Source: a virus
Direction: 5' to 3' (one strand)
Length of the DNA stretch: 39,527 nucleotides
UHGV virus genome: UHGV-0152919
This document shows, in pieces, positions 1 to 8,840 of this stretch. The first letter of the stretch is position 1. The number at the start of each line of letters is the position of its first letter. The notes beneath the pieces were generated by a model that was given only the letters and a program-made list of their open reading frames with translations, ran no database searches and was not told the origin of the DNA. The position numbers were made by a program, and so were the translations under genes.

Positions 1-64
1 TGAACCCGTTGCGCTTAAGGAACTTGTACGCAATCTGACAGAGTTCGCGGTGTGTTAACGCCAT
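1..64 (-). CDS. 5' end of a minus-strand gene running off the window (first ~21 codons, MALTHRELCQIAYKFLKRNGF...)
   Basis: ATG at 64-62 preceded by AGGAGA Shine-Dalgarno on the minus strand; open to window edge. Confidence 0.3.
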   Translation of the reverse strand, partial: MALTHRELCQIAYKFLKRNGF

Positions 65-65
65 A

Positions 66-254
66 TCACTCTCCTTTAGTGCGCAAGTGGTTTTTCCAGC
101 GGTTTTGCGCCGCGCTGGGCTTTTTGCAAAAACCACAATCCATCATCCCGTAATATTTCATCAACCCCATCCGTCGGTTGCTGAGTCTCACCCACTGCCA
201 GACGCCAGGAGCGTTTCTACGAACTAACAGAATCTTTGCTTTACGGTTTTTCAT
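66..254 (-). CDS. small hypothetical protein (62 aa, Cys-containing)
   Basis: ORF track; co-oriented with the surrounding minus-strand operon; no recognisable domain. Confidence 0.3.
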   Translation of the reverse strand: MKNRKAKILLVRRNAPGVWQWVRLSNRRMGLMKYYGMMDCGFCKKPSAAQNRWKNHLRTKGE

Positions 255-426
255 CGCTTTGCTCTCCTGCGTCTCTTTGCTGCTCGTCGTGCCGCTGCAA
301 TACCGGTATGGCGGCGCTTTGGTGCCGGGATGATGTTGTCAGCCATCAGGACATGTGGCTTTGCAATTAGCGCAGAAGCCCAAAAACGAGTCGGGTACGG
401 TAACAAGCCGATACATGCCACACGCA

Positions 427-915
427 CTACTCACCTCCGTTGATGCGAATGCCTGTTGCAATGCTGTTTATGATGCTGTCAGTGCATGGGGTAGAAAGCT
501 GGGCATCTCCAGCAATTTTCATGACATCAACATCTGCATATCGAATACCGAGGTGTATCAGACCGGCTATACCTGACTTAAGCCGAGCATTTTCCATAAA
601 CAGATCCTTTGCCCGCTGTTTTTCTGCCTCAAGCTCAACGCGCAACTTCCCTACCGTTAGCGCAATATCCTCGTTCTCCTGGTCGCGTGATTTGATGTAT
701 TGCTGGTTCCTTTCCCGTTCATCCAGTAGTGCCAGCACGGTTTCTGGTCCGGCCAGAAATTTGAAGGCGTTGAGCGCATCAATATCCACACCGTAATCTT
801 TAAGTTCCTGTTCACTTAACAAATCATCATCAGCTGGCAACATTAACAGGCGTTCCATTGCTGGAATTGCACGTTCCGCCGCCTCACGCAGTGCCTGGTA
901 ATTAATTTCGCTCAC
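427..915 (-). CDS. hypothetical coiled-coil protein, possibly Ead/Ea22-like; GTG start
   Basis: ORF track; likely GTG start at 915 (VSEINYQALRE...) preceded by AAGGAGG; N-terminal QALRE motif recalls Ead/Ea22-like prophage proteins (from memory). Confidence 0.5.
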   Translation of the reverse strand: MSEINYQALREAAERAIPAMERLLMLPADDDLLSEQELKDYGVDIDALNAFKFLAGPETVLALLDERERNQQYIKSRDQENEDIALTVGKLRVELEAEKQRAKDLFMENARLKSGIAGLIHLGIRYADVDVMKIAGDAQLSTPCTDSIINSIATGIRINGGE

Positions 916-1151
916 TGGTTGCCTCCTTTGCGGAGTTGCGCTGCGATGCACGAAAAAAAAGACTCCCGAGTGTGACAGTTAAGAGCTGGTGCGAACGCCG
1001 CGTTAAGAACGGCGGAATCACAGCCGTCATCAATATAGAGCGCAATTTTTTTCTCCAGGCGCGCTTTGGCTTCCTGCAACTGCATACCCCGGCACGCACG
1101 CGGGATATAATCAGCAATTTGAGCGATAGCTTTTTCGTTCTGTTTAAACAT
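912..1151 (-). CDS. small hypothetical protein (79 aa)
   Basis: ORF track; stop overlaps the start of the downstream gene, suggesting coupling. Confidence 0.4.
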   Translation of the reverse strand: MFKQNEKAIAQIADYIPRACRGMQLQEAKARLEKKIALYIDDGCDSAVLNAAFAPALNCHTRESFFSCIAAQLRKGGNQ

Positions 1152-1347
1152 GCTTCACCTCGATAGGCTTGATGGTGTCTAACAGCAGTCGGCGGCGCGT
1201 ATTTTCTGCAAAATGGCGGCGTCCAGTTTCTTTGTGGTAAAACTCGTTTTTGCCAACGACCCACATCCGCTCTGTTTGGTGCAGTTTTTTTACCTTCGGG
1301 CCATCTTTGGTGATCACGGTACCGGTATGGGTTTTTACGATTGTCAT
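1144..1347 (-). CDS. small hypothetical protein (67 aa)
   Basis: ORF track; start overlaps the stop of the upstream PAPS-reductase-like gene (ATGA-type overlap). Confidence 0.4.
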   Translation of the reverse strand: MTIVKTHTGTVITKDGPKVKKLHQTERMWVVGKNEFYHKETGRRHFAENTRRRLLLDTIKPIEVKHV

Positions 1348-6682: not shown

Positions 6683-7290
6683 TCTTTAAGAGTCATCTGC
6701 GGAATACCTCCCATTTTCCCGCATGAAACAACGTCAATCTGTTCACGCGCAGACTGGAATAACAAAGGCAGGTGACTTAGATTTTTTGGCGTGCCGCCGG
6801 AGTGAACGCGTAGTTCTTGCGTAGCGTCAACGCCCACCAGAGCTACATGTTTGAATCCGATATGGAAAGCCAGGTTCAGAGCACCATATGCACTATTGCC
6901 GCTGGCAATTTCATTCTCATCTTCGCAAAGGCCGAAATGTGCGGACCAGCGCCACGCCCACCACTCGGGAGAATTCGTATTTTTTGGCTCCATGCCGCGT
7001 TCAGCCACACGACGGAAGCACAGAACGCCATCTCTGACTTCACGTTCTTTAACATCGGGTAGTGCCATGCAATAACAAACACCACGGCGACGGCGGCCAC
7101 GACCAACGCGCCGCATATTGTCTGGGGATGGATCAAGGGTGAAAAAATAAGAAGCGCGGTTAAGCCAGTCGATGGCCCCATTGACCGCTATAATCGGCAC
7201 TCCGCGCGGCGCAACAAAGTTTGCGGCGCTTGGGCCACTGCCGACGATAATAACGCGATCACTGCCTCTAAATTTATTCTTGGGAAACAT
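6664..7290 (-). CDS. Rossmann-like GSGPS-motif protein, paralog of the next gene (possibly MptE/DUF115-like)
   Basis: IIVGSGPS...IIAVN...[11 protein letters not shown]...VALVGVD motifs shared with the 7188-7850 product. Confidence 0.5.
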
Positions 7291-7850
7291 TGAATTGCAC
7301 TGCTCCTACTTGCATTCAAAATATGTAAATCTGCGTGTTTTTTGCGGGTATCCAGGAACTGCTGTTGCCATTTTGAAATAGACACCTGCGTTGGATTCCG
7401 TAGTGCTTGAGGGTGCGCGCCATGCCAATGAAGGCCGTTTTGCAGAGAACAGTCATAGCCGACTAATACCACTACTTCAGCCCCTGATTCAGCAGCCAGA
7501 CTGATAGCCTGCGCGCCGCTATTTACCCCTTCCGCCGGTCCACAATATCGCCTGTACTCCAACGAAAATGATTTCGCCGCCGCCAGGTTGGCTGTCACTT
7601 TGCGGAATCTCCCTCCCGGTATGGTGGATCCGTATTGCTTCCACCATGACAAATCACCGGCGTATAAGGCATAAATGTCATCGAACATCTGCCAGGAATT
7701 GTTAACCGCGATGATTGAACAGCCAGTTTTTTCTATAGCAGCACAGTCCTCACGAGTGAGTGACGGTCCGCTACCGACACAAAAAACAGTCCTAGTCGCC
7801 CTGGGTGGTATGTTCATTCTCAGCTGCAAATTCAGCCTCCAGGCGAGCAT
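7188..7850 (-). CDS. Rossmann-like GSGPS-motif protein, paralog of the previous gene
   Basis: FCVGSGPS...IIAVN...NSGAQAISLAA...VVLVGYD; start may be an internal Met; overlaps the downstream gene by ~100 nt. Confidence 0.5.
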   Translation of the reverse strand: MLAWRLNLQLRMNIPPRATRTVFCVGSGPSLTREDCAAIEKTGCSIIAVNNSWQMFDDIYALYAGDLSWWKQYGSTIPGGRFRKVTANLAAAKSFSLEYRRYCGPAEGVNSGAQAISLAAESGAEVVVLVGYDCSLQNGLHWHGAHPQALRNPTQVSISKWQQQFLDTRKKHADLHILNASRSSAIQCFPRINLEAVIALLSSAVAQAPQTLLRRAECRL

Positions 7851-7980
7851 TCATTTCAGCGATTACAGGGTCCACTACAGCATCTGTTTCCTGTTCATTA
7901 CGCGGCATGACCGATGCCAGCGACTCATAATTAACCTTGGATGACACGATTATTCTCCCGATGTTAAAGTGCACTACCAC
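7792..7980 (-). CDS. small acidic hypothetical protein (62 aa)
   Basis: ORF track only; overlaps the start of the next gene. Confidence 0.3.
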   Translation of the reverse strand: MVVHFNIGRIIVSSKVNYESLASVMPRNEQETDAVVDPVIAEMNARLEAEFAAENEHTTQGD

Positions 7981-8013
7981 AAAGAGCTTGCATGCACTAA
8001 TTAATTTATTATT

Positions 8014-8592
8014 TTAAGCAGCATGCAACCACTTATCGCCGTTCAATACTTGCTCAATAGCCTCACCCTTTTTAAGACTTATGTATTCCAGGATGGCGGT
8101 AATCGCTTGTTCTGCACCATACGCAAGAACAACGTAGTAGCCTTCCTCTCTAAGCCTGCGCATCCAGGCGATCTGCTCTTTCGTCGGGGCTTTACCATTT
8201 GGTTCTTTAAGCTCAATTCGCATGCCGTGATAAATACCGCATGCTTTATCGAGACTCATGTCCGGATAACCTTTTTTCTGCCCTTCAGCCTTCATTTTCC
8301 CGGCGGTTGCTTTTGAACGCTTCCCTCCGTTAGGCGTTGCATGCAACAGCTCATAGATGTCAGGGTGCTTGCGTTCGAAGTAATCAAAAATGAAAACCTG
8401 CTCGAAGTGCTCGCAATTTCCGTCGCGCAGGTCTGGGTTCTTTGCCAGTGCTGCAAGTGCCTTCGCATGTGGAGAAACTTCTTTTACCGGCGCAAGCGAT
8501 AAGAATGGATCCTTTTTGGTTTTTGGCCTGGACCGCCCCTTATTTCGACGCTCACTAAAAGCCTGAAACTCTTCCTCAGTAAAGCGCAACAT
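8014..8592 (-). CDS. VRR-NUC domain nuclease (PD-(D/E)xK fold)
   Basis: GYPDMSL...IELKEPNGK...Q motif pattern characteristic of VRR-NUC. Confidence 0.7.
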   Translation of the reverse strand: MLRFTEEEFQAFSERRNKGRSRPKTKKDPFLSLAPVKEVSPHAKALAALAKNPDLRDGNCEHFEQVFIFDYFERKHPDIYELLHATPNGGKRSKATAGKMKAEGQKKGYPDMSLDKACGIYHGMRIELKEPNGKAPTKEQIAWMRRLREEGYYVVLAYGAEQAITAILEYISLKKGEAIEQVLNGDKWLHAA

Positions 8593-8594
8593 AA

Positions 8595-8840
8595 TCAGTC
8601 AAATCCTGCCGGTCGCATGCCATATTTACGCTGTTTTGCGGCCTGCTCTTCCCTGTGCCATTGCGCACATTCAGCGTCACAATAAATGCCTGATTCAATC
8701 GATTCATTGCAGTAACGACACTTCCCTGTAAATACCTGGCTCACGACCTGTGCCTGCTTTCTGATGTTATCGATGGCCATGTCTTTGAGAGCTTCTAACT
8801 GATTCATGCTCAGCTCTGCATCATCAACACGTTCTGCCAA
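8595..8840 (-). CDS. small C4 zinc-finger protein (TraR/DksA- or Ogr-like)
   Basis: CRYC...CDAEC cysteine pairs; 81 aa; first gene of the minus-strand operon. Confidence 0.55.
   Translation of the reverse strand: MAERVDDAELSMNQLEALKDMAIDNIRKQAQVVSQVFTGKCRYCNESIESGIYCDAECAQWHREEQAAKQRKYGMRPAGFD

What the first reader, a model, noticed from the sequence alone, without database searches (positions are those of the whole stretch)
1..8840. Long minus-strand island of small-molecule and nucleic-acid enzymes of unclear collective function
One co-oriented operon encodes, in transcription order, a Zn-finger protein, a VRR-NUC nuclease, two tandem paralogous GSGPS Rossmann proteins, a lambda-type Ser/Thr phosphatase, a glycosyltransferase-like protein, a coiled-coil protein, a Pnkp-type HAD phosphatase, and a PAPS-reductase-like PP-loop enzyme, with several micro-ORFs between them. 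Internal C1-operator-like sites (3133, 5225/5274) suggest it is repressed in lysogeny and switched on in sections. The mix (nucleotide-sugar transferase-like, PP-loop, phosphatases, nuclease) is compatible with a nucleic-acid or protein modification or anti-defence pathway, but I cannot name one.
Basis: partly seen in the sequence, partly recalled or inferred. Interest (0 to 1): 0.6.

Follow-up and report, generated by a model that had tools for sequence, protein, structure and literature searches.

The report
P1 pmg region with glycosyltransferase module
This stretch is the long-annotated but functionally obscure pmgL–pap region of a P1-like phage-plasmid plus a variable cargo block; it is a mosaic and not one pathway, but three of its genes (pmgO, pmgP, pmgQ) form a mobile sugar-transferase module found in the late or virion-gene regions of many unrelated phages.

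Summary
Window 2260-8999 is 98.8% identical to P1 (pmgL, pmgM, pmgN, pmgO, pmgP, ppp, pmgQ, pmgR, pmgS, pap).

"One operon, one pathway" is only partly right. There are at least four C1-controlled units, and published P1 deletions and CRISPRi show no plating or antirestriction phenotype except for pmgR. The PAPS-reductase gene is a lambdoid ninC, present in 3 of 59 close P1-like loci.

The new result is a co-conserved trio:
- PmgO and PmgP are paralogues with a Maf/sialyltransferase-like fold.
- PmgQ is a GT8-like glycosyltransferase.
- The trio recurs in a lambdoid prophage and, with PmgO and PmgP fused, in a metagenomic phage contig.
- PmgO-like genes alternatively pair with a GT9-like protein and a methyltransferase in phage D3, PAJU2 and a jumbo phage.
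- These modules lie in late or structural regions of the phages examined.
- Two divergent P1-like elements carry kdsB (CMP-Kdo synthetase) in the same gene array.

My best reading is a late-expressed module that builds a Kdo-plus-hexose glycan. The acceptor is most likely virion protein, but this is untested.

The parts
8877..8957 (-). Divergent control region: promoters P1pmgL and P2pmgL, late promoter LPpmgL (8929-8947), C1 operator Op82/O26 (8898-8914, + strand) and LP26 for the opposite tail operon
   Evidence: Identical to the annotated P1 sites. Operator match.
8595..8840 (-). pmgL: 81-aa C4 zinc-finger protein (DksA/TraR-like)
   Evidence: phrog_54, E 1.6e-12. CxxC...CxxxC is visible in the sequence. 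P1 PmgL.
8014..8592 (-). pmgM: stand-alone VRR-NUC nuclease
   Evidence: PDB 4qbl VRR-NUC, E 1.3e-17. PHROG Holliday junction resolvase, 4.8e-27. Pfam VRR_NUC 21.2 bits, below the cut-off of 23.8.
7991..8046 (.). C1 operator Op83/Oppp (7991-8007, + strand) and promoter PpmgN (8020-8046, - strand)
   Evidence: The operator is identical to P1. The promoter differs from P1 by 1 nt.
7792..7947 (-). pmgN: small ORF overlapping the pmgO start
   Evidence: P1 annotation. Present in 59/59 close P1-like loci. No family hit.
7188..7850 (-). pmgO: Maf/sialyltransferase-like (MptE-like fold) putative ulosonic-acid transferase, with a GSGPS loop and an invariant GYDCS...HWHGxH motif
6664..7290 (-). pmgP: paralogue of pmgO with the same GSGPS loop but a GVDAT motif in place of the His cluster. 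Its 5' end overlaps the pmgO 3' end.
   Evidence: hhalign of A1 against A6: probability 97%, E 7.4e-11. Fused to a PmgO-like domain in P0051. Weak match to WaaZ, E 1.3e-4.
5990..6682 (-). ppp: lambda-type Ser/Thr (metallo)phosphatase, inserted between pmgP and pmgQ only in the closer P1-likes
   Evidence: Pfam Metallophos 9e-16. NCBIfam PrpA/PrpB-type 3e-81, below cut-off. Absent from L003, L006, L007 and L118.
5292..5993 (-). pmgQ: GT8-like retaining glycosyltransferase (DLD = DxD; C-terminal FHGxPRP motif)
   Evidence: Profile against PDB: 6mw5 9.6e-7, glycogenin 2e-3. AF2 pLDDT 94.1. Foldseek: GT8 structures, 3.6e-9.
5225..5290 (.). C1 operators Op86b (5225-5241, + strand) and Op86a (5274-5290, - strand) with promoter PpmgR (5261-5289)
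4992..5210 (-). [quoted passage not shown]
   Evidence: P1 annotation. Deletion phenotype in PMC9024508.
3728..4990 (-). pmgS: 420-aa coiled-coil protein. Non-essential, function unknown, restricted to the P1 lineage.
   Evidence: phrog_1660. Only coiled-coil matches. Homologues in L007, L008, L094 and L118.
3680..3708 (-). Terminator-like hairpin between pmgS and pap: 11-bp stem followed by a T run
   Evidence: Pattern match only; function not shown.
3149..3655 (-). pap: stand-alone HAD phosphatase of the PNKP type (DIDGT motif)
   Evidence: Pfam HAD_PNKP 7.8e-12. Homologues in 1080 phage records. Lies next to kdsB in L007.
3105..3149 (-). C1 operator Op88/OpmgT (3133-3149) with promoters P1pmgT and P2pmgT: the start of the variable cargo unit
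2964..3098 (-). 44-aa hydrophobic ORF, not annotated in P1
   Evidence: ORF. Present in 54/59 P1-like loci. TM-like hydropathy 2.10.
2226..2954 (-). pmgT-like 242-aa protein, possibly ASCH-like
   Evidence: Near-identical to the first ~230 aa of P1 PmgT. phrog_874. Weak ASC-1 match, E 0.89.
1344..2222 (-). ninC-like PAPS-reductase/PP-loop protein: lambdoid cargo
   Evidence: Pfam PAPS_reduct 37.5 bits, above the cut-off of 22.5. 92-93% DNA identity to the Stx-phage ninC region. Present in 3/59 P1-like loci. PADLOC SspD 1.4e-13.
66..1347 (-). Further cargo: 67-aa ORF (1144-1347), 79-aa ORF (912-1151), Ead/Ea22-like protein (427-951), 58-aa ORF (251-427) and 62-aa ORF (66-254)
   Evidence: Pfam Ead_Ea22 9.6e-33. 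Variable presence: 15-31 of 59 loci.

Best explanation
The region is a mosaic of at least four C1-repressed transcription units of a P1-like phage-plasmid, not one pathway.

**Unit 1: pmgL-pmgM.** It encodes a zinc-finger protein and a stand-alone VRR-NUC nuclease. The nuclease probably resolves or trims branched DNA (inferred).

**Unit 2: pmgN-pmgO-pmgP-ppp-pmgQ.** It carries a mobile glycosyltransferase module.
- PmgO and PmgP are paralogous enzymes with a Maf/sialyltransferase-like fold.
- I infer that they transfer an ulosonic acid, most probably Kdo from host CMP-Kdo.
- PmgQ is a GT8-type retaining hexosyltransferase, presumably using UDP-hexose.
- Together they would build a short Kdo-plus-hexose glycan during lytic growth, after C1 repression is lifted.
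- The acceptor is not known. I think it is most likely one or more virion proteins. Less likely acceptors are the LPS core (the P1 receptor) or DNA.
- ppp is a later insertion into this module.

**Unit 3: pmgR-pmgS(-pap).** It encodes a head-completion factor, a coiled-coil protein of unknown role, and a generic phage HAD phosphatase.

**Unit 4: from Op88 leftwards.** This is a variable cargo slot. Here it is filled with pmgT plus lambdoid nin/ea-type genes (ninC, Ea22-like) that have no functional tie to the rest.

**Shown versus inferred.** Shown here or in the cited papers: gene identities, folds, co-conservation, the fusions, the positions in other phages, and dispensability for plaque formation. 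Inferred: the donor sugars, the acceptor and the biological benefit.
For: **Identity with P1 and its regulatory sites:**

**The trio is co-conserved away from P1.**
- A Citrobacter rodentium lambdoid prophage (L003) has homologues of PmgO (41% identity), PmgP (58%) and PmgQ (43%). They are contiguous, in the same order, and lack ppp.
- Contig L006 has a single 376-aa PmgO-PmgP fusion followed by a PmgQ homologue.
- Tandem MptE-like fusions recur among family representatives.

**Folds.**
- PmgO and PmgP are paralogues: hhalign probability 97%.
- PmgQ is GT8-like.

**Partners are always sugar enzymes.**
- GT8 in the P1-type module.
- A GT9 heptosyltransferase-like protein plus a SAM methyltransferase in at least 13 species' genomes, in D3, in PAJU2 and in jumbo phage Eowyn.
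- GT2 in L123.
- Fusion to a TylF-type sugar O-methyltransferase.

**Kdo donor.**
- Two divergent P1-like elements carry a kdsB in the same gene array after pmgS. L007 scores 270 bits against a cut-off of 155 for TIGR00466. L118 is a 96-kb Pantoea plasmid.
- PmgP matches WaaZ weakly (E 1.3e-4).

**Late or virion context.**
- Of 149 genes within three genes of the module in non-P1 loci, the recurrent families are head completion, tail completion, connector, portal, lysis and small terminase.
- In D3 the PmgO homologue lies between the major head protein and the head-tail adaptor.
- In L011 and in the contig carrying P0081, the PmgQ homologue lies between capsid and connector genes.
- The module also occurs in the jumbo phage Eowyn. 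I take Eowyn to be virulent from my own knowledge of jumbo phages, not from the record. If so, that argues against a lysogen-only role.

**Independence of the other genes:**

**Dispensability:** PMC9024508 and PMC10695390.
Against: - No enzymatic activity, donor or acceptor has been shown for any member.
- PmgO and PmgP score below Pfam's gathering threshold for MptE-like (23.4 and 20.9 bits against 34.6).
- The P1 virion proteome paper and the 3.2 Å cryo-EM paper mention no glycans. Neither paper's text mentions a search for them.
- GT8, GT9 and WaaZ-type enzymes are also the families that build the LPS core, so an LPS acceptor fits the enzymology equally well.
- kdsB is found in only two P1-like elements, not in P1 or in this window.
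- Three loci place the module beside inverse-autotransporter adhesin genes rather than virion genes.
- The lysis-to-terminase junction, where several modules sit, is also a classic site for accessory (moron) genes.
Confidence: 0.5

Rival explanations
1. The PmgO/PmgP/PmgQ module modifies the host LPS core. For example, it could add a WaaZ-like third Kdo plus a hexose. This would mask or truncate the P1 receptor (the terminal core glucose, from my own knowledge). Infected or lysing cells and their debris would then stop adsorbing progeny phage or superinfecting phages.
For: - All partner families are LPS-core families: GT8 as in WaaJ and WaaO, GT9 heptosyltransferases, and the WaaZ-like match.
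- P0051 carries a precomputed faint WaaZ_KDO_III hit.
- kdsB in P1-like relatives is annotated under LPS core biosynthesis.
- The donors (CMP-Kdo, ADP-heptose, UDP-glucose) are the LPS-core pool.
Against: - In P1 the genes sit behind C1 operators and downstream of a late promoter, so by inference they are off in lysogens.
- The related GT9-plus-methyltransferase module is present in jumbo phage Eowyn, which I take to be virulent, and inside head-tail gene clusters.
- New LPS made late in infection would only dilute the existing surface LPS (inference).
- The match to WaaZ is weak: probability 54% over 38 columns for PmgP and 9.8% for PmgO.
- The closest structural relative of PmgO is Maf, a protein glycosyltransferase.
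Confidence: 0.2
2. The module decorates phage DNA with sugars late in infection, as an anti-restriction hypermodification. This would be comparable to phage DNA glycosyltransferases that attach hexose, heptose or Kdo to modified cytosines.
For: - Phage DNA glycosyltransferases that install Kdo or heptose on 5hmC have been reported. Their gene clusters can include cytidylyltransferase and HAD-like enzymes (bioRxiv 10.1101/2023.12.21.572611).
- L003 carries several DNA methyltransferase genes upstream.
Against: - The region holds no enzyme that would create a hydroxymethyl acceptor base.
- Deleting these P1 genes did not change plating on EcoA, EcoB or EcoK hosts (PMC9024508).
- The folds are Maf/sialyltransferase-like and GT8-like, not the T4 beta-GT-like GT-B fold that the paper describes for its Kdo- and heptose-installing enzymes GT94 and GT53.
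- The modules sit among virion and lysis genes, not among replication genes.
Confidence: 0.07
3. The whole island, including the nuclease, both phosphatases and the PP-loop enzyme, is one coordinated modification or anti-defence pathway.
For: - The genes are co-oriented and share C1 control.
- pmgL through pap are syntenic in P1-likes down to about 50-60% protein identity.
- pap lies next to kdsB, with overlapping stop and start codons, in L007.
Against: - ninC is in 3/59 close relatives and was recently acquired from lambdoid phages.
- ppp and pap are absent from L118, and ppp is absent from L007.
- Outside the P1 lineage only pmgO, pmgP and pmgQ travel together.
- Pap and VRR-NUC homologues are widespread stand-alone phage genes.
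- pmgR has a separate morphogenetic role.
- There are no PADLOC hits apart from NinC to SspD and weak coiled-coil matches of PmgS to LmuB.
Confidence: 0.05

Closest known systems
Bacteriophage P1 pmgL-pap region (Łobocka et al. 2004 annotation, GenBank AF234172) and the P7 hdm/sht/pap genes
   Same: Same genes in the same order. Identity is 98.8% over window 2260-8999. The operators Op82, Op83, Op86a/b and Op88 and the late promoter LPpmgL are identical.
   Different: The slot after Op88 differs. P1 has pmgT (with another C-terminus), pmgU and pmgV. P7 has a different set. This window has pmgT, ninC, two small ORFs and an Ea22-like gene. The 'morphogenetic' names in the P1 and P7 records are guesses, and deletions contradict most of them (PMC9024508).
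Maf (motility-associated factor) flagellin glycosyltransferases and GT42 bacterial sialyltransferases (Cst-I, Cst-II)
   Different: PmgO and PmgP are about 200-aa single domains without Maf's flanking domains. Sequence identity is about 16%. They fall below the Pfam threshold. They have their own invariant motifs: GYDCS...HWHGxH in PmgO and GVDAT in PmgP. The donor and acceptor are unknown.
GT8 retaining glycosyltransferases (Skp1 alpha-galactosyltransferase, glycogenin, LgtC, LPS-core WaaJ/WaaO)
   Same: PmgQ shares the fold, the DxD motif and a C-terminal H-x-G-x-P-(K/R)-P motif.
   Different: Only 12-16% identity. PmgQ is shorter, at 233 aa. No Pfam or NCBIfam model detects it. Its acceptor is unknown.
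Virion glycosylation by mycobacteriophage glycosyltransferases encoded next to the capsid gene (my recollection of Freeman et al. 2023; a genome announcement, PMC11256854, infers capsid glycosylation from two putative glycosyltransferases in a mycobacteriophage)
   Same: Non-essential glycosyltransferase genes are embedded in virion-gene clusters or expressed late.
   Different: The enzyme families, hosts (Gram-negative) and probable sugars (Kdo, heptose, hexose) are different. No glycan has been shown on P1 or D3 virions.
E. coli WaaZ (KdoIII addition to the LPS inner core)
   Same: Weak profile similarity around the G-N-S-A...G-V-D-x-T core. CMP-Kdo is the presumed donor. A kdsB gene lies in the same gene array in P1-like relatives.
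   Different: The similarity is marginal. WaaZ is chromosomal, 283 aa, and acts on LPS.

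Membership tests
P1 (Punavirus) pmgL-pap region | Nucleotide identity and gene order with the P1 reference | tested here: met
   98.8% ungapped identity over window 2260-8999 and the same ten genes.
P1 (Punavirus) pmgL-pap region | C1 operators and the Lpa-dependent late promoter at the annotated positions | tested here: met
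   Op82, Op83, Op86a, Op86b, Op88 and LPpmgL are identical to P1. There are 9 operator matches in the window against 0.22 expected.
GT8 glycosyltransferases (PmgQ) | GT-A fold with GT8 structures as best matches | tested here: met
   Foldseek: 6mw5 at 3.6e-9, followed by glycogenin, WbbM, GlyE and LgtC. Profile search against PDB: 9.6e-7.
GT8 glycosyltransferases (PmgQ) | DxD metal/nucleotide-sugar motif and the C-terminal H..G..KP motif | tested here: met
   D79-L80-D81 and H208-G209-x-P211-R212-P213 are invariant or nearly invariant in 25-27 homologues, and they align to the glycogenin and AgtA motifs.
GT8 glycosyltransferases (PmgQ) | Retaining hexosyl transfer from a UDP-sugar | not testable with these tools
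   Needs an enzyme assay.
MptE-like/Maf/GT42 sialyltransferase-like fold (PmgO, PmgP) | Fold match to Maf and sialyltransferases | tested here: met
MptE-like/Maf/GT42 sialyltransferase-like fold (PmgO, PmgP) | Pfam PF01973 gathering score (34.6 bits) | tested here: not met
   PmgO scores 23.4 bits and PmgP 20.9 bits. The fused homologue P0051 scores 44.6 bits.
MptE-like/Maf/GT42 sialyltransferase-like fold (PmgO, PmgP) | Use of a CMP-ulosonic acid donor, as opposed to ATP (pyrophosphokinase branch of the fold) | not testable with these tools
WaaZ-type Kdo transferases | Significant sequence or profile similarity to E. coli WaaZ | tested here: inconclusive
   hhalign for PmgP: E 1.3e-4, probability 54%, 38 columns. 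For PmgO: E 0.0032, probability 9.8%. P0051 has only a faint precomputed PF27901 hit, and my Pfam scan did not reproduce it.
Phage virion-glycosylation systems | Glycosyltransferase genes embedded among virion structural genes | tested here: met
   Met in relatives: D3, PAJU2, L011, the P0081 contig, and the neighbour statistics. In P1 the genes only adjoin the tail operon and pmgR.
Phage virion-glycosylation systems | Glycan present on virion proteins and dependent on the genes | not testable with these tools
   The published P1 proteome and cryo-EM papers contain no mention of glycans.
Lysogenic-conversion LPS or O-antigen modification systems (Gtr-type) | Expression from the prophage, and integral-membrane components | tested here: not met
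   C1 operators sit on each unit, so the units are repressed in lysogens by inference from P1. No transmembrane-like segment occurs in PmgO, PmgP or PmgQ. The related module is also in jumbo phage Eowyn, which I take to be virulent.
Phage DNA glycosylation pathways | An enzyme that makes a hydroxymethyl (or similar) acceptor base, encoded with the glycosyltransferase | tested here: not met
   None among the proteins of 1-8840. The rest of the genome was not screened for this.
VRR-NUC nucleases (PmgM) | Sequence match to a solved stand-alone VRR-NUC, including the catalytic core | tested here: met
   PDB 4qbl, E 1.3e-17 over residues 77-182. The GYPD...IELK segment is conserved in the alignment.
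Lambda-type Ser/Thr phosphatases (Ppp) | Metallophosphoesterase motifs GDxHG, GDxxDRG and GNHE | tested here: met
   GDLHG, GDLIDRG and GNHE are present in the translation. Pfam Metallophos scores 59.3 bits against a cut-off of 21.5.
PAPS-reductase/PP-loop family, lambda NinC type | Pfam PF01507 above threshold, and identity with lambdoid ninC | tested here: met
   37.5 bits against 22.5. SGG PP-loop motif at residues 10-12. 92-93% DNA identity to regions of Stx phages annotated NinC.

The most novel reading that the evidence does not exclude
P1, D3-like phages, lambdoid prophages and some jumbo phages of Gram-negative bacteria glycosylate their own virions, or other late phage proteins, with short glycans. 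The glycans would be built from the host's LPS-core sugar nucleotides (CMP-Kdo, ADP-heptose, UDP-hexose). The enzymes would be an undescribed family of about 200-aa Maf-like ulosonic-acid transferases (PmgO and PmgP), paired with GT8-like or GT9-like partners. This would be a Gram-negative counterpart of mycobacteriophage virion glycosylation, hidden in the classic phage P1.
Probability: 0.3. Interest if true: 0.75.

Novelty: new variant of a known kind. Interest (0 to 1): 0.5.

Why it matters
P1 is one of the most used phages in genetics, yet about a tenth of its genome, this region included, has no assigned function, and single deletions show no plating or antirestriction phenotype.

Recognising pmgO, pmgP and pmgQ as a portable glycosylation module gives these genes a concrete, testable biochemical role. 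The module is shared with D3, PAJU2, phiNP-type prophages and jumbo phages, and kdsB is recruited in P1-like relatives.

The tests are direct: is there a Kdo-containing glycan on virions, LPS or DNA?

If virions are the target, it would mean phages of Gram-negative bacteria coat themselves with host-like core sugars. That would bear on immune recognition in phage therapy, on adsorption, and on particle stability.

The analysis also corrects the idea that the whole island is one pathway. It shows that the Op88 slot is a cargo site that exchanges genes with lambdoid phages.

Tried and rejected
- **Single-pathway reading.** Rejected by co-conservation counts and by contexts outside P1.
- **Anti-defence or defence membership.** PADLOC gave only NinC to SspD, BrxP and DndC (shared PP-loop fold) and weak coiled-coil hits of PmgS to LmuB.
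- **First IMG/VR scan with the PmgO alignment.** It returned only near-identical P1-likes, which served only for the presence/absence counts.
- **IMG/VR scan with the L007 KdsB.** It found nothing. tblastn against the plasmid collection then found the Pantoea element.
- **Foldseek against afdb50.** The library was not available.
- **Single-sequence PDB searches.** Searches with PmgO, PmgQ and PmgT gave nothing significant. Only profiles or models worked.
- **PmgS.** Only coiled-coil matches; no function assigned.
- **Pap as a Kdo-8-phosphate phosphatase.** I considered this because pap overlaps kdsB in L007. I did not adopt it. Pap matches HAD_PNKP, and its homologues are stand-alone genes in over 1000 phages that I did not examine for glycosyltransferases.
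- **Lysogenic conversion.** Considered and rejected (C1 operators; presence in a jumbo phage).
- **Literature searches.** They found no paper assigning a function to pmgO, pmgP or pmgQ, and none on glycosylated P1 or D3 virions. The original PAJU2 paper is not in the library.

Full report
**1. What is there**

The window is a P1-like phage-plasmid. Positions 2260-8840 match phage P1 (AF234172, bases 78602-85182) at 98.8%, and the flanking 24 kb match at 98.5%. The ungapped identity over 2260-8999 is 98.8%.

The minus-strand ORFs correspond one to one to annotated P1 genes:

| Gene | Window coordinates |
|---|---|
| pmgL | 8595-8840 |
| pmgM | 8014-8592 |
| pmgN | 7792-7947 |
| pmgO | 7188-7850 |
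| pmgP | 6664-7290 |
| ppp | 5990-6682 |
| pmgQ | 5292-5993 |
| pmgR | 4992-5210 |
| pmgS | 3728-4990 |
| pap | 3149-3655 |

- PmgL is a DksA-like zinc finger (phrog_54, 1.6e-12).
- PmgM is a VRR-NUC (PDB 4qbl, 1.3e-17).
- Ppp is a metallophosphatase (Pfam 9e-16).
- Pap is a HAD_PNKP phosphatase (7.8e-12).
- The 292-aa protein is PAPS-reductase-like (37.5 bits against a cut-off of 22.5).
- PmgS gives only coiled-coil matches.

It is P1 PmgT with a different C-terminus.

**2. Regulation**

The C1 consensus matches nine times in the window against 0.22 expected.
- The sites at 3133, 5225 and 5274 are identical to P1 Op88, Op86b and Op86a.
- Op83 (7991-8007) and Op82 (8898-8914), the late promoter LPpmgL (8929-8947) and the annotated sigma-70 promoters are also conserved. 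The only change is one base in PpmgN.
- A terminator-like hairpin follows pmgS at 3708-3680.

The region therefore holds at least four separately controlled units, not one operon:
1. pmgL-pmgM
2. pmgN-pmgO-pmgP-ppp-pmgQ
3. pmgR-pmgS(-pap)
4. everything downstream of Op88

This layout was already described for P1, so the regulatory part of the finding is correct but known.

**3. What is published**

In P1, single deletions of these genes gave no plaquing defect and no change in antirestriction on EcoK, EcoA and EcoB hosts. The exception is pmgR, whose deletion yields unjoined heads and tails (PMC9024508). A CRISPRi screen agreed, apart from pmgN (essential by knock-down only) and pmgR (missed) (PMC10695390).

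The authors state that the old 'head structure and processing' label for this block is not supported. I found no paper that assigns a function to pmgO, pmgP or pmgQ.

**4. Test of the 'one pathway' idea by co-conservation**

I counted each gene in 59 close P1-like loci from IMG/VR:

| Gene(s) | Loci with the gene (of 59) |
|---|---|
| pmgL to pmgS | 57-59 |
| pap | 54 |
| 44-aa ORF | 54 |
| pmgT-like | 40 |
| Ea22-like (as divergent alleles) | 31 |
| 67-aa and 79-aa ORFs | 15 |
| ninC-like gene | 3 |

Window 619-2213 is 92-93% identical to the nin region of Stx phages, where the gene is annotated NinC. P1 and P7 carry other genes after Op88. In a close relative the co-oriented cargo continues beyond the window with an EaA gene. 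The left third of the 'island' is thus a variable cargo slot that exchanges genes with lambdoid phages. The PP-loop enzyme has no stable link to the rest.

The other genes also look independent:
- Pap homologues occur as stand-alone genes in 1080 phage records.
- PmgM is a typical stand-alone VRR-NUC.
- ppp is present in P1-likes down to about 60% identity (L008, L094) but absent from the more divergent P1-likes L007 and L118 and from all non-P1 loci.

**5. The part that does hold together**

PmgO homologues (34-43% identity) occur well outside the P1 lineage.
- In a Citrobacter rodentium lambdoid prophage (L003), homologues of PmgO (41%), PmgP (58%) and PmgQ (43%) are contiguous and in the same order. 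They lie between the lysis genes and the terminase.
- In contig L006 the first two are one 376-aa polypeptide, followed by a PmgQ homologue and a further nucleotide-sugar-transferase-like protein.
- PmgO and PmgP are paralogues (hhalign probability 97%, E 7.4e-11).
- PmgO has an invariant GYDCS...HWHGxH motif. PmgP has GVDAT in its place.

The fold results are as follows:
- PmgQ (pLDDT 94.1) is GT8-like by profile (6mw5 at 9.6e-7; glycogenin at 2e-3) and by fold. Its DxD and H-G-x-P-R-P motifs are invariant.

**6. A second module type and the family's size**

At least 13 species' genomes pair the PmgO-like gene with two other genes instead of PmgP and PmgQ. The same pairing occurs in phages D3 and PAJU2 and in jumbo phage Eowyn.
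- The first partner is a protein of about 285 aa that is GT9 heptosyltransferase-like. It matches 1psw at E 0.0034 and PF01075 at up to 1e-6, and it has an invariant CxC..H.C cluster.
- The second partner is a SAM methyltransferase.
- One locus fuses the PmgO-like gene to the GT9-like gene.

The family is large. It has 465 representatives (50% identity clusters) at E ≤ 1e-30 and 3557 at E ≤ 1e-10. Fusions include tandem MptE-like domains, a TylF-type sugar O-methyltransferase and Ig-like domains. Every recurrent partner is a sugar-handling enzyme. That favours the glycosyltransferase branch of the fold over the pyrophosphokinase branch.

**7. The donor**

Two divergent P1-like elements carry a kdsB gene in the same gene array.
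- In L007 it follows pmgS and overlaps the start of the pap homologue. It scores 270 bits against the 155-bit cut-off of the kdsB equivalog model.
- A 96-kb Pantoea plasmid (L118) has pmgL, pmgM, pmgO, pmgP, pmgQ, pmgR and pmgS, then kdsB.

PmgP also shows a weak profile match to E. coli WaaZ (E 1.3e-4, probability 54%). CMP-Kdo is therefore the most likely donor for PmgO and/or PmgP. This is an inference.

**8. The acceptor**

This is the weakest step.

The module's position is consistent across phages. Among 149 genes within three genes of the module in non-P1 loci, the recurrent Pfam families are head completion (6), tail completion (4), connector (3), portal, Rz and lysozyme, small terminase and HNH.
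- In D3 the PmgO homologue sits between the major head protein and the head-tail adaptor. The GT9-like and methyltransferase genes sit between the head-closure and gp10-like genes.
- In L011 and in the P0081 contig the GT8-like gene lies between capsid and connector genes.
- PAJU2 ORF010, the PmgO homologue, is annotated 'structural protein'. I could not check the basis for that label.

Three further observations bear on the acceptor:
- Presence in jumbo phage Eowyn (which I take to be virulent) and C1 repression in P1 argue against lysogenic conversion.
- The closest characterised relatives act on proteins: Maf, and the GT8 enzymes that modify Skp1, glycogenin and serine-rich adhesins.
- Three loci place the module beside inverse-autotransporter adhesin genes. 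This recalls adhesin heptosyltransferases (from memory; not tested).

I therefore favour protein, and in phages virion protein, as the acceptor. An LPS-core acceptor fits the enzymology equally well and cannot be excluded. DNA is unlikely (no acceptor-base enzyme; no antirestriction phenotype). The P1 proteome and cryo-EM papers do not mention glycans.

**9. Verdict**

The regulatory reading is right but already known. The 'collective function' is right only for pmgO, pmgP and pmgQ, possibly with sugar-nucleotide supply genes in relatives. The region as such is already annotated in P1.

The added value is the definition of a mobile, late-expressed glycosylation module with a probable Kdo donor. 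I could not find this described anywhere. It is a new variant of a known kind (phage-encoded glycosylation), with moderate interest pending a simple mass-spectrometry test.

Noticed in passing
window 35367-35541 (- strand): Rfam match to the sok antitoxin RNA of hok/sok-type toxin-antitoxin systems (89.7 bits against a gathering score of 59). This suggests a hok/sok-like addiction module in this P1-like element.
   Followed up: no
window 16434-16509, 18137-18212 and 18215-18290 (- strand): Three tRNA genes with anticodons CAT, TGT and GTT. They lie in a region otherwise 98.5% identical to P1.
   Followed up: no
window 38999-39084 and 39152-39204 (- strand): C4 antisense RNA and its a1/b1 target sites (Rfam RF01695 and RF03163), which I recognise as P1's immI immunity region. 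Further C1 operator matches lie at 18946/18957 (an overlapping pair), 22479, 37595 and 39265.
   Followed up: no
window 2964-3098 (- strand): A 44-aa ORF with one transmembrane-like segment lies directly downstream of Op88. It is present in 54 of 59 close P1-like loci but is not annotated in the P1 reference record.
   Followed up: partly
window about 2226-2260: The homology breakpoint with the P1 reference falls inside the 3' end of pmgT. P1 PmgT (309 aa) and the window protein (242 aa) share the first ~230 residues and then diverge. One of the two is a recombination-generated C-terminus.
   Followed up: partly
window 3078-3100 (+ strand): A strong hairpin (10-bp stem, 6 GC pairs) followed by a T run on the + strand, where no + strand gene ends. 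On the minus-strand transcript from PpmgT it would form a leader hairpin at the start of the 44-aa ORF.
   Followed up: no
window 7188-7290; also L003 8510-8603, L007 and L118: The pmgP start overlaps the pmgO 3' end by 40-100 nt in every lineage. The conserved GSGPS strand of PmgP is encoded inside the overlap. Gene callers in two metagenomic loci chose a later start and so lost it. The non-conserved C-terminal tail of PmgO is the overprinted part.
   Followed up: partly
L112 (2892-8531), L115 (2236-7938) and L123 (2029-10699): In two Lonsdalea genomes and one metagenomic contig, PmgO-like modules lie beside large inverse-autotransporter (invasin/Big_1) genes. In L123 the PmgO-like protein itself carries Big_1 Ig-like domains and is followed by a GT2 gene.
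   Followed up: partly
L121 (PAJU2) 4974-5543: The PmgO homologue of Pseudomonas phage PAJU2 (ORF010) is annotated 'structural protein' in GenBank. If this rests on virion protein sequencing, the enzyme would be virion-associated. The source paper is not in the library.
   Followed up: partly
L010 6001-6633: A lone PmgQ-like GT8 gene sits between lpdA and acnB in a 347-kb metagenomic contig, with no phage genes nearby. The same protein is also on record for Candidatus Pantoea floridensis. It may be a domesticated copy.
   Followed up: no
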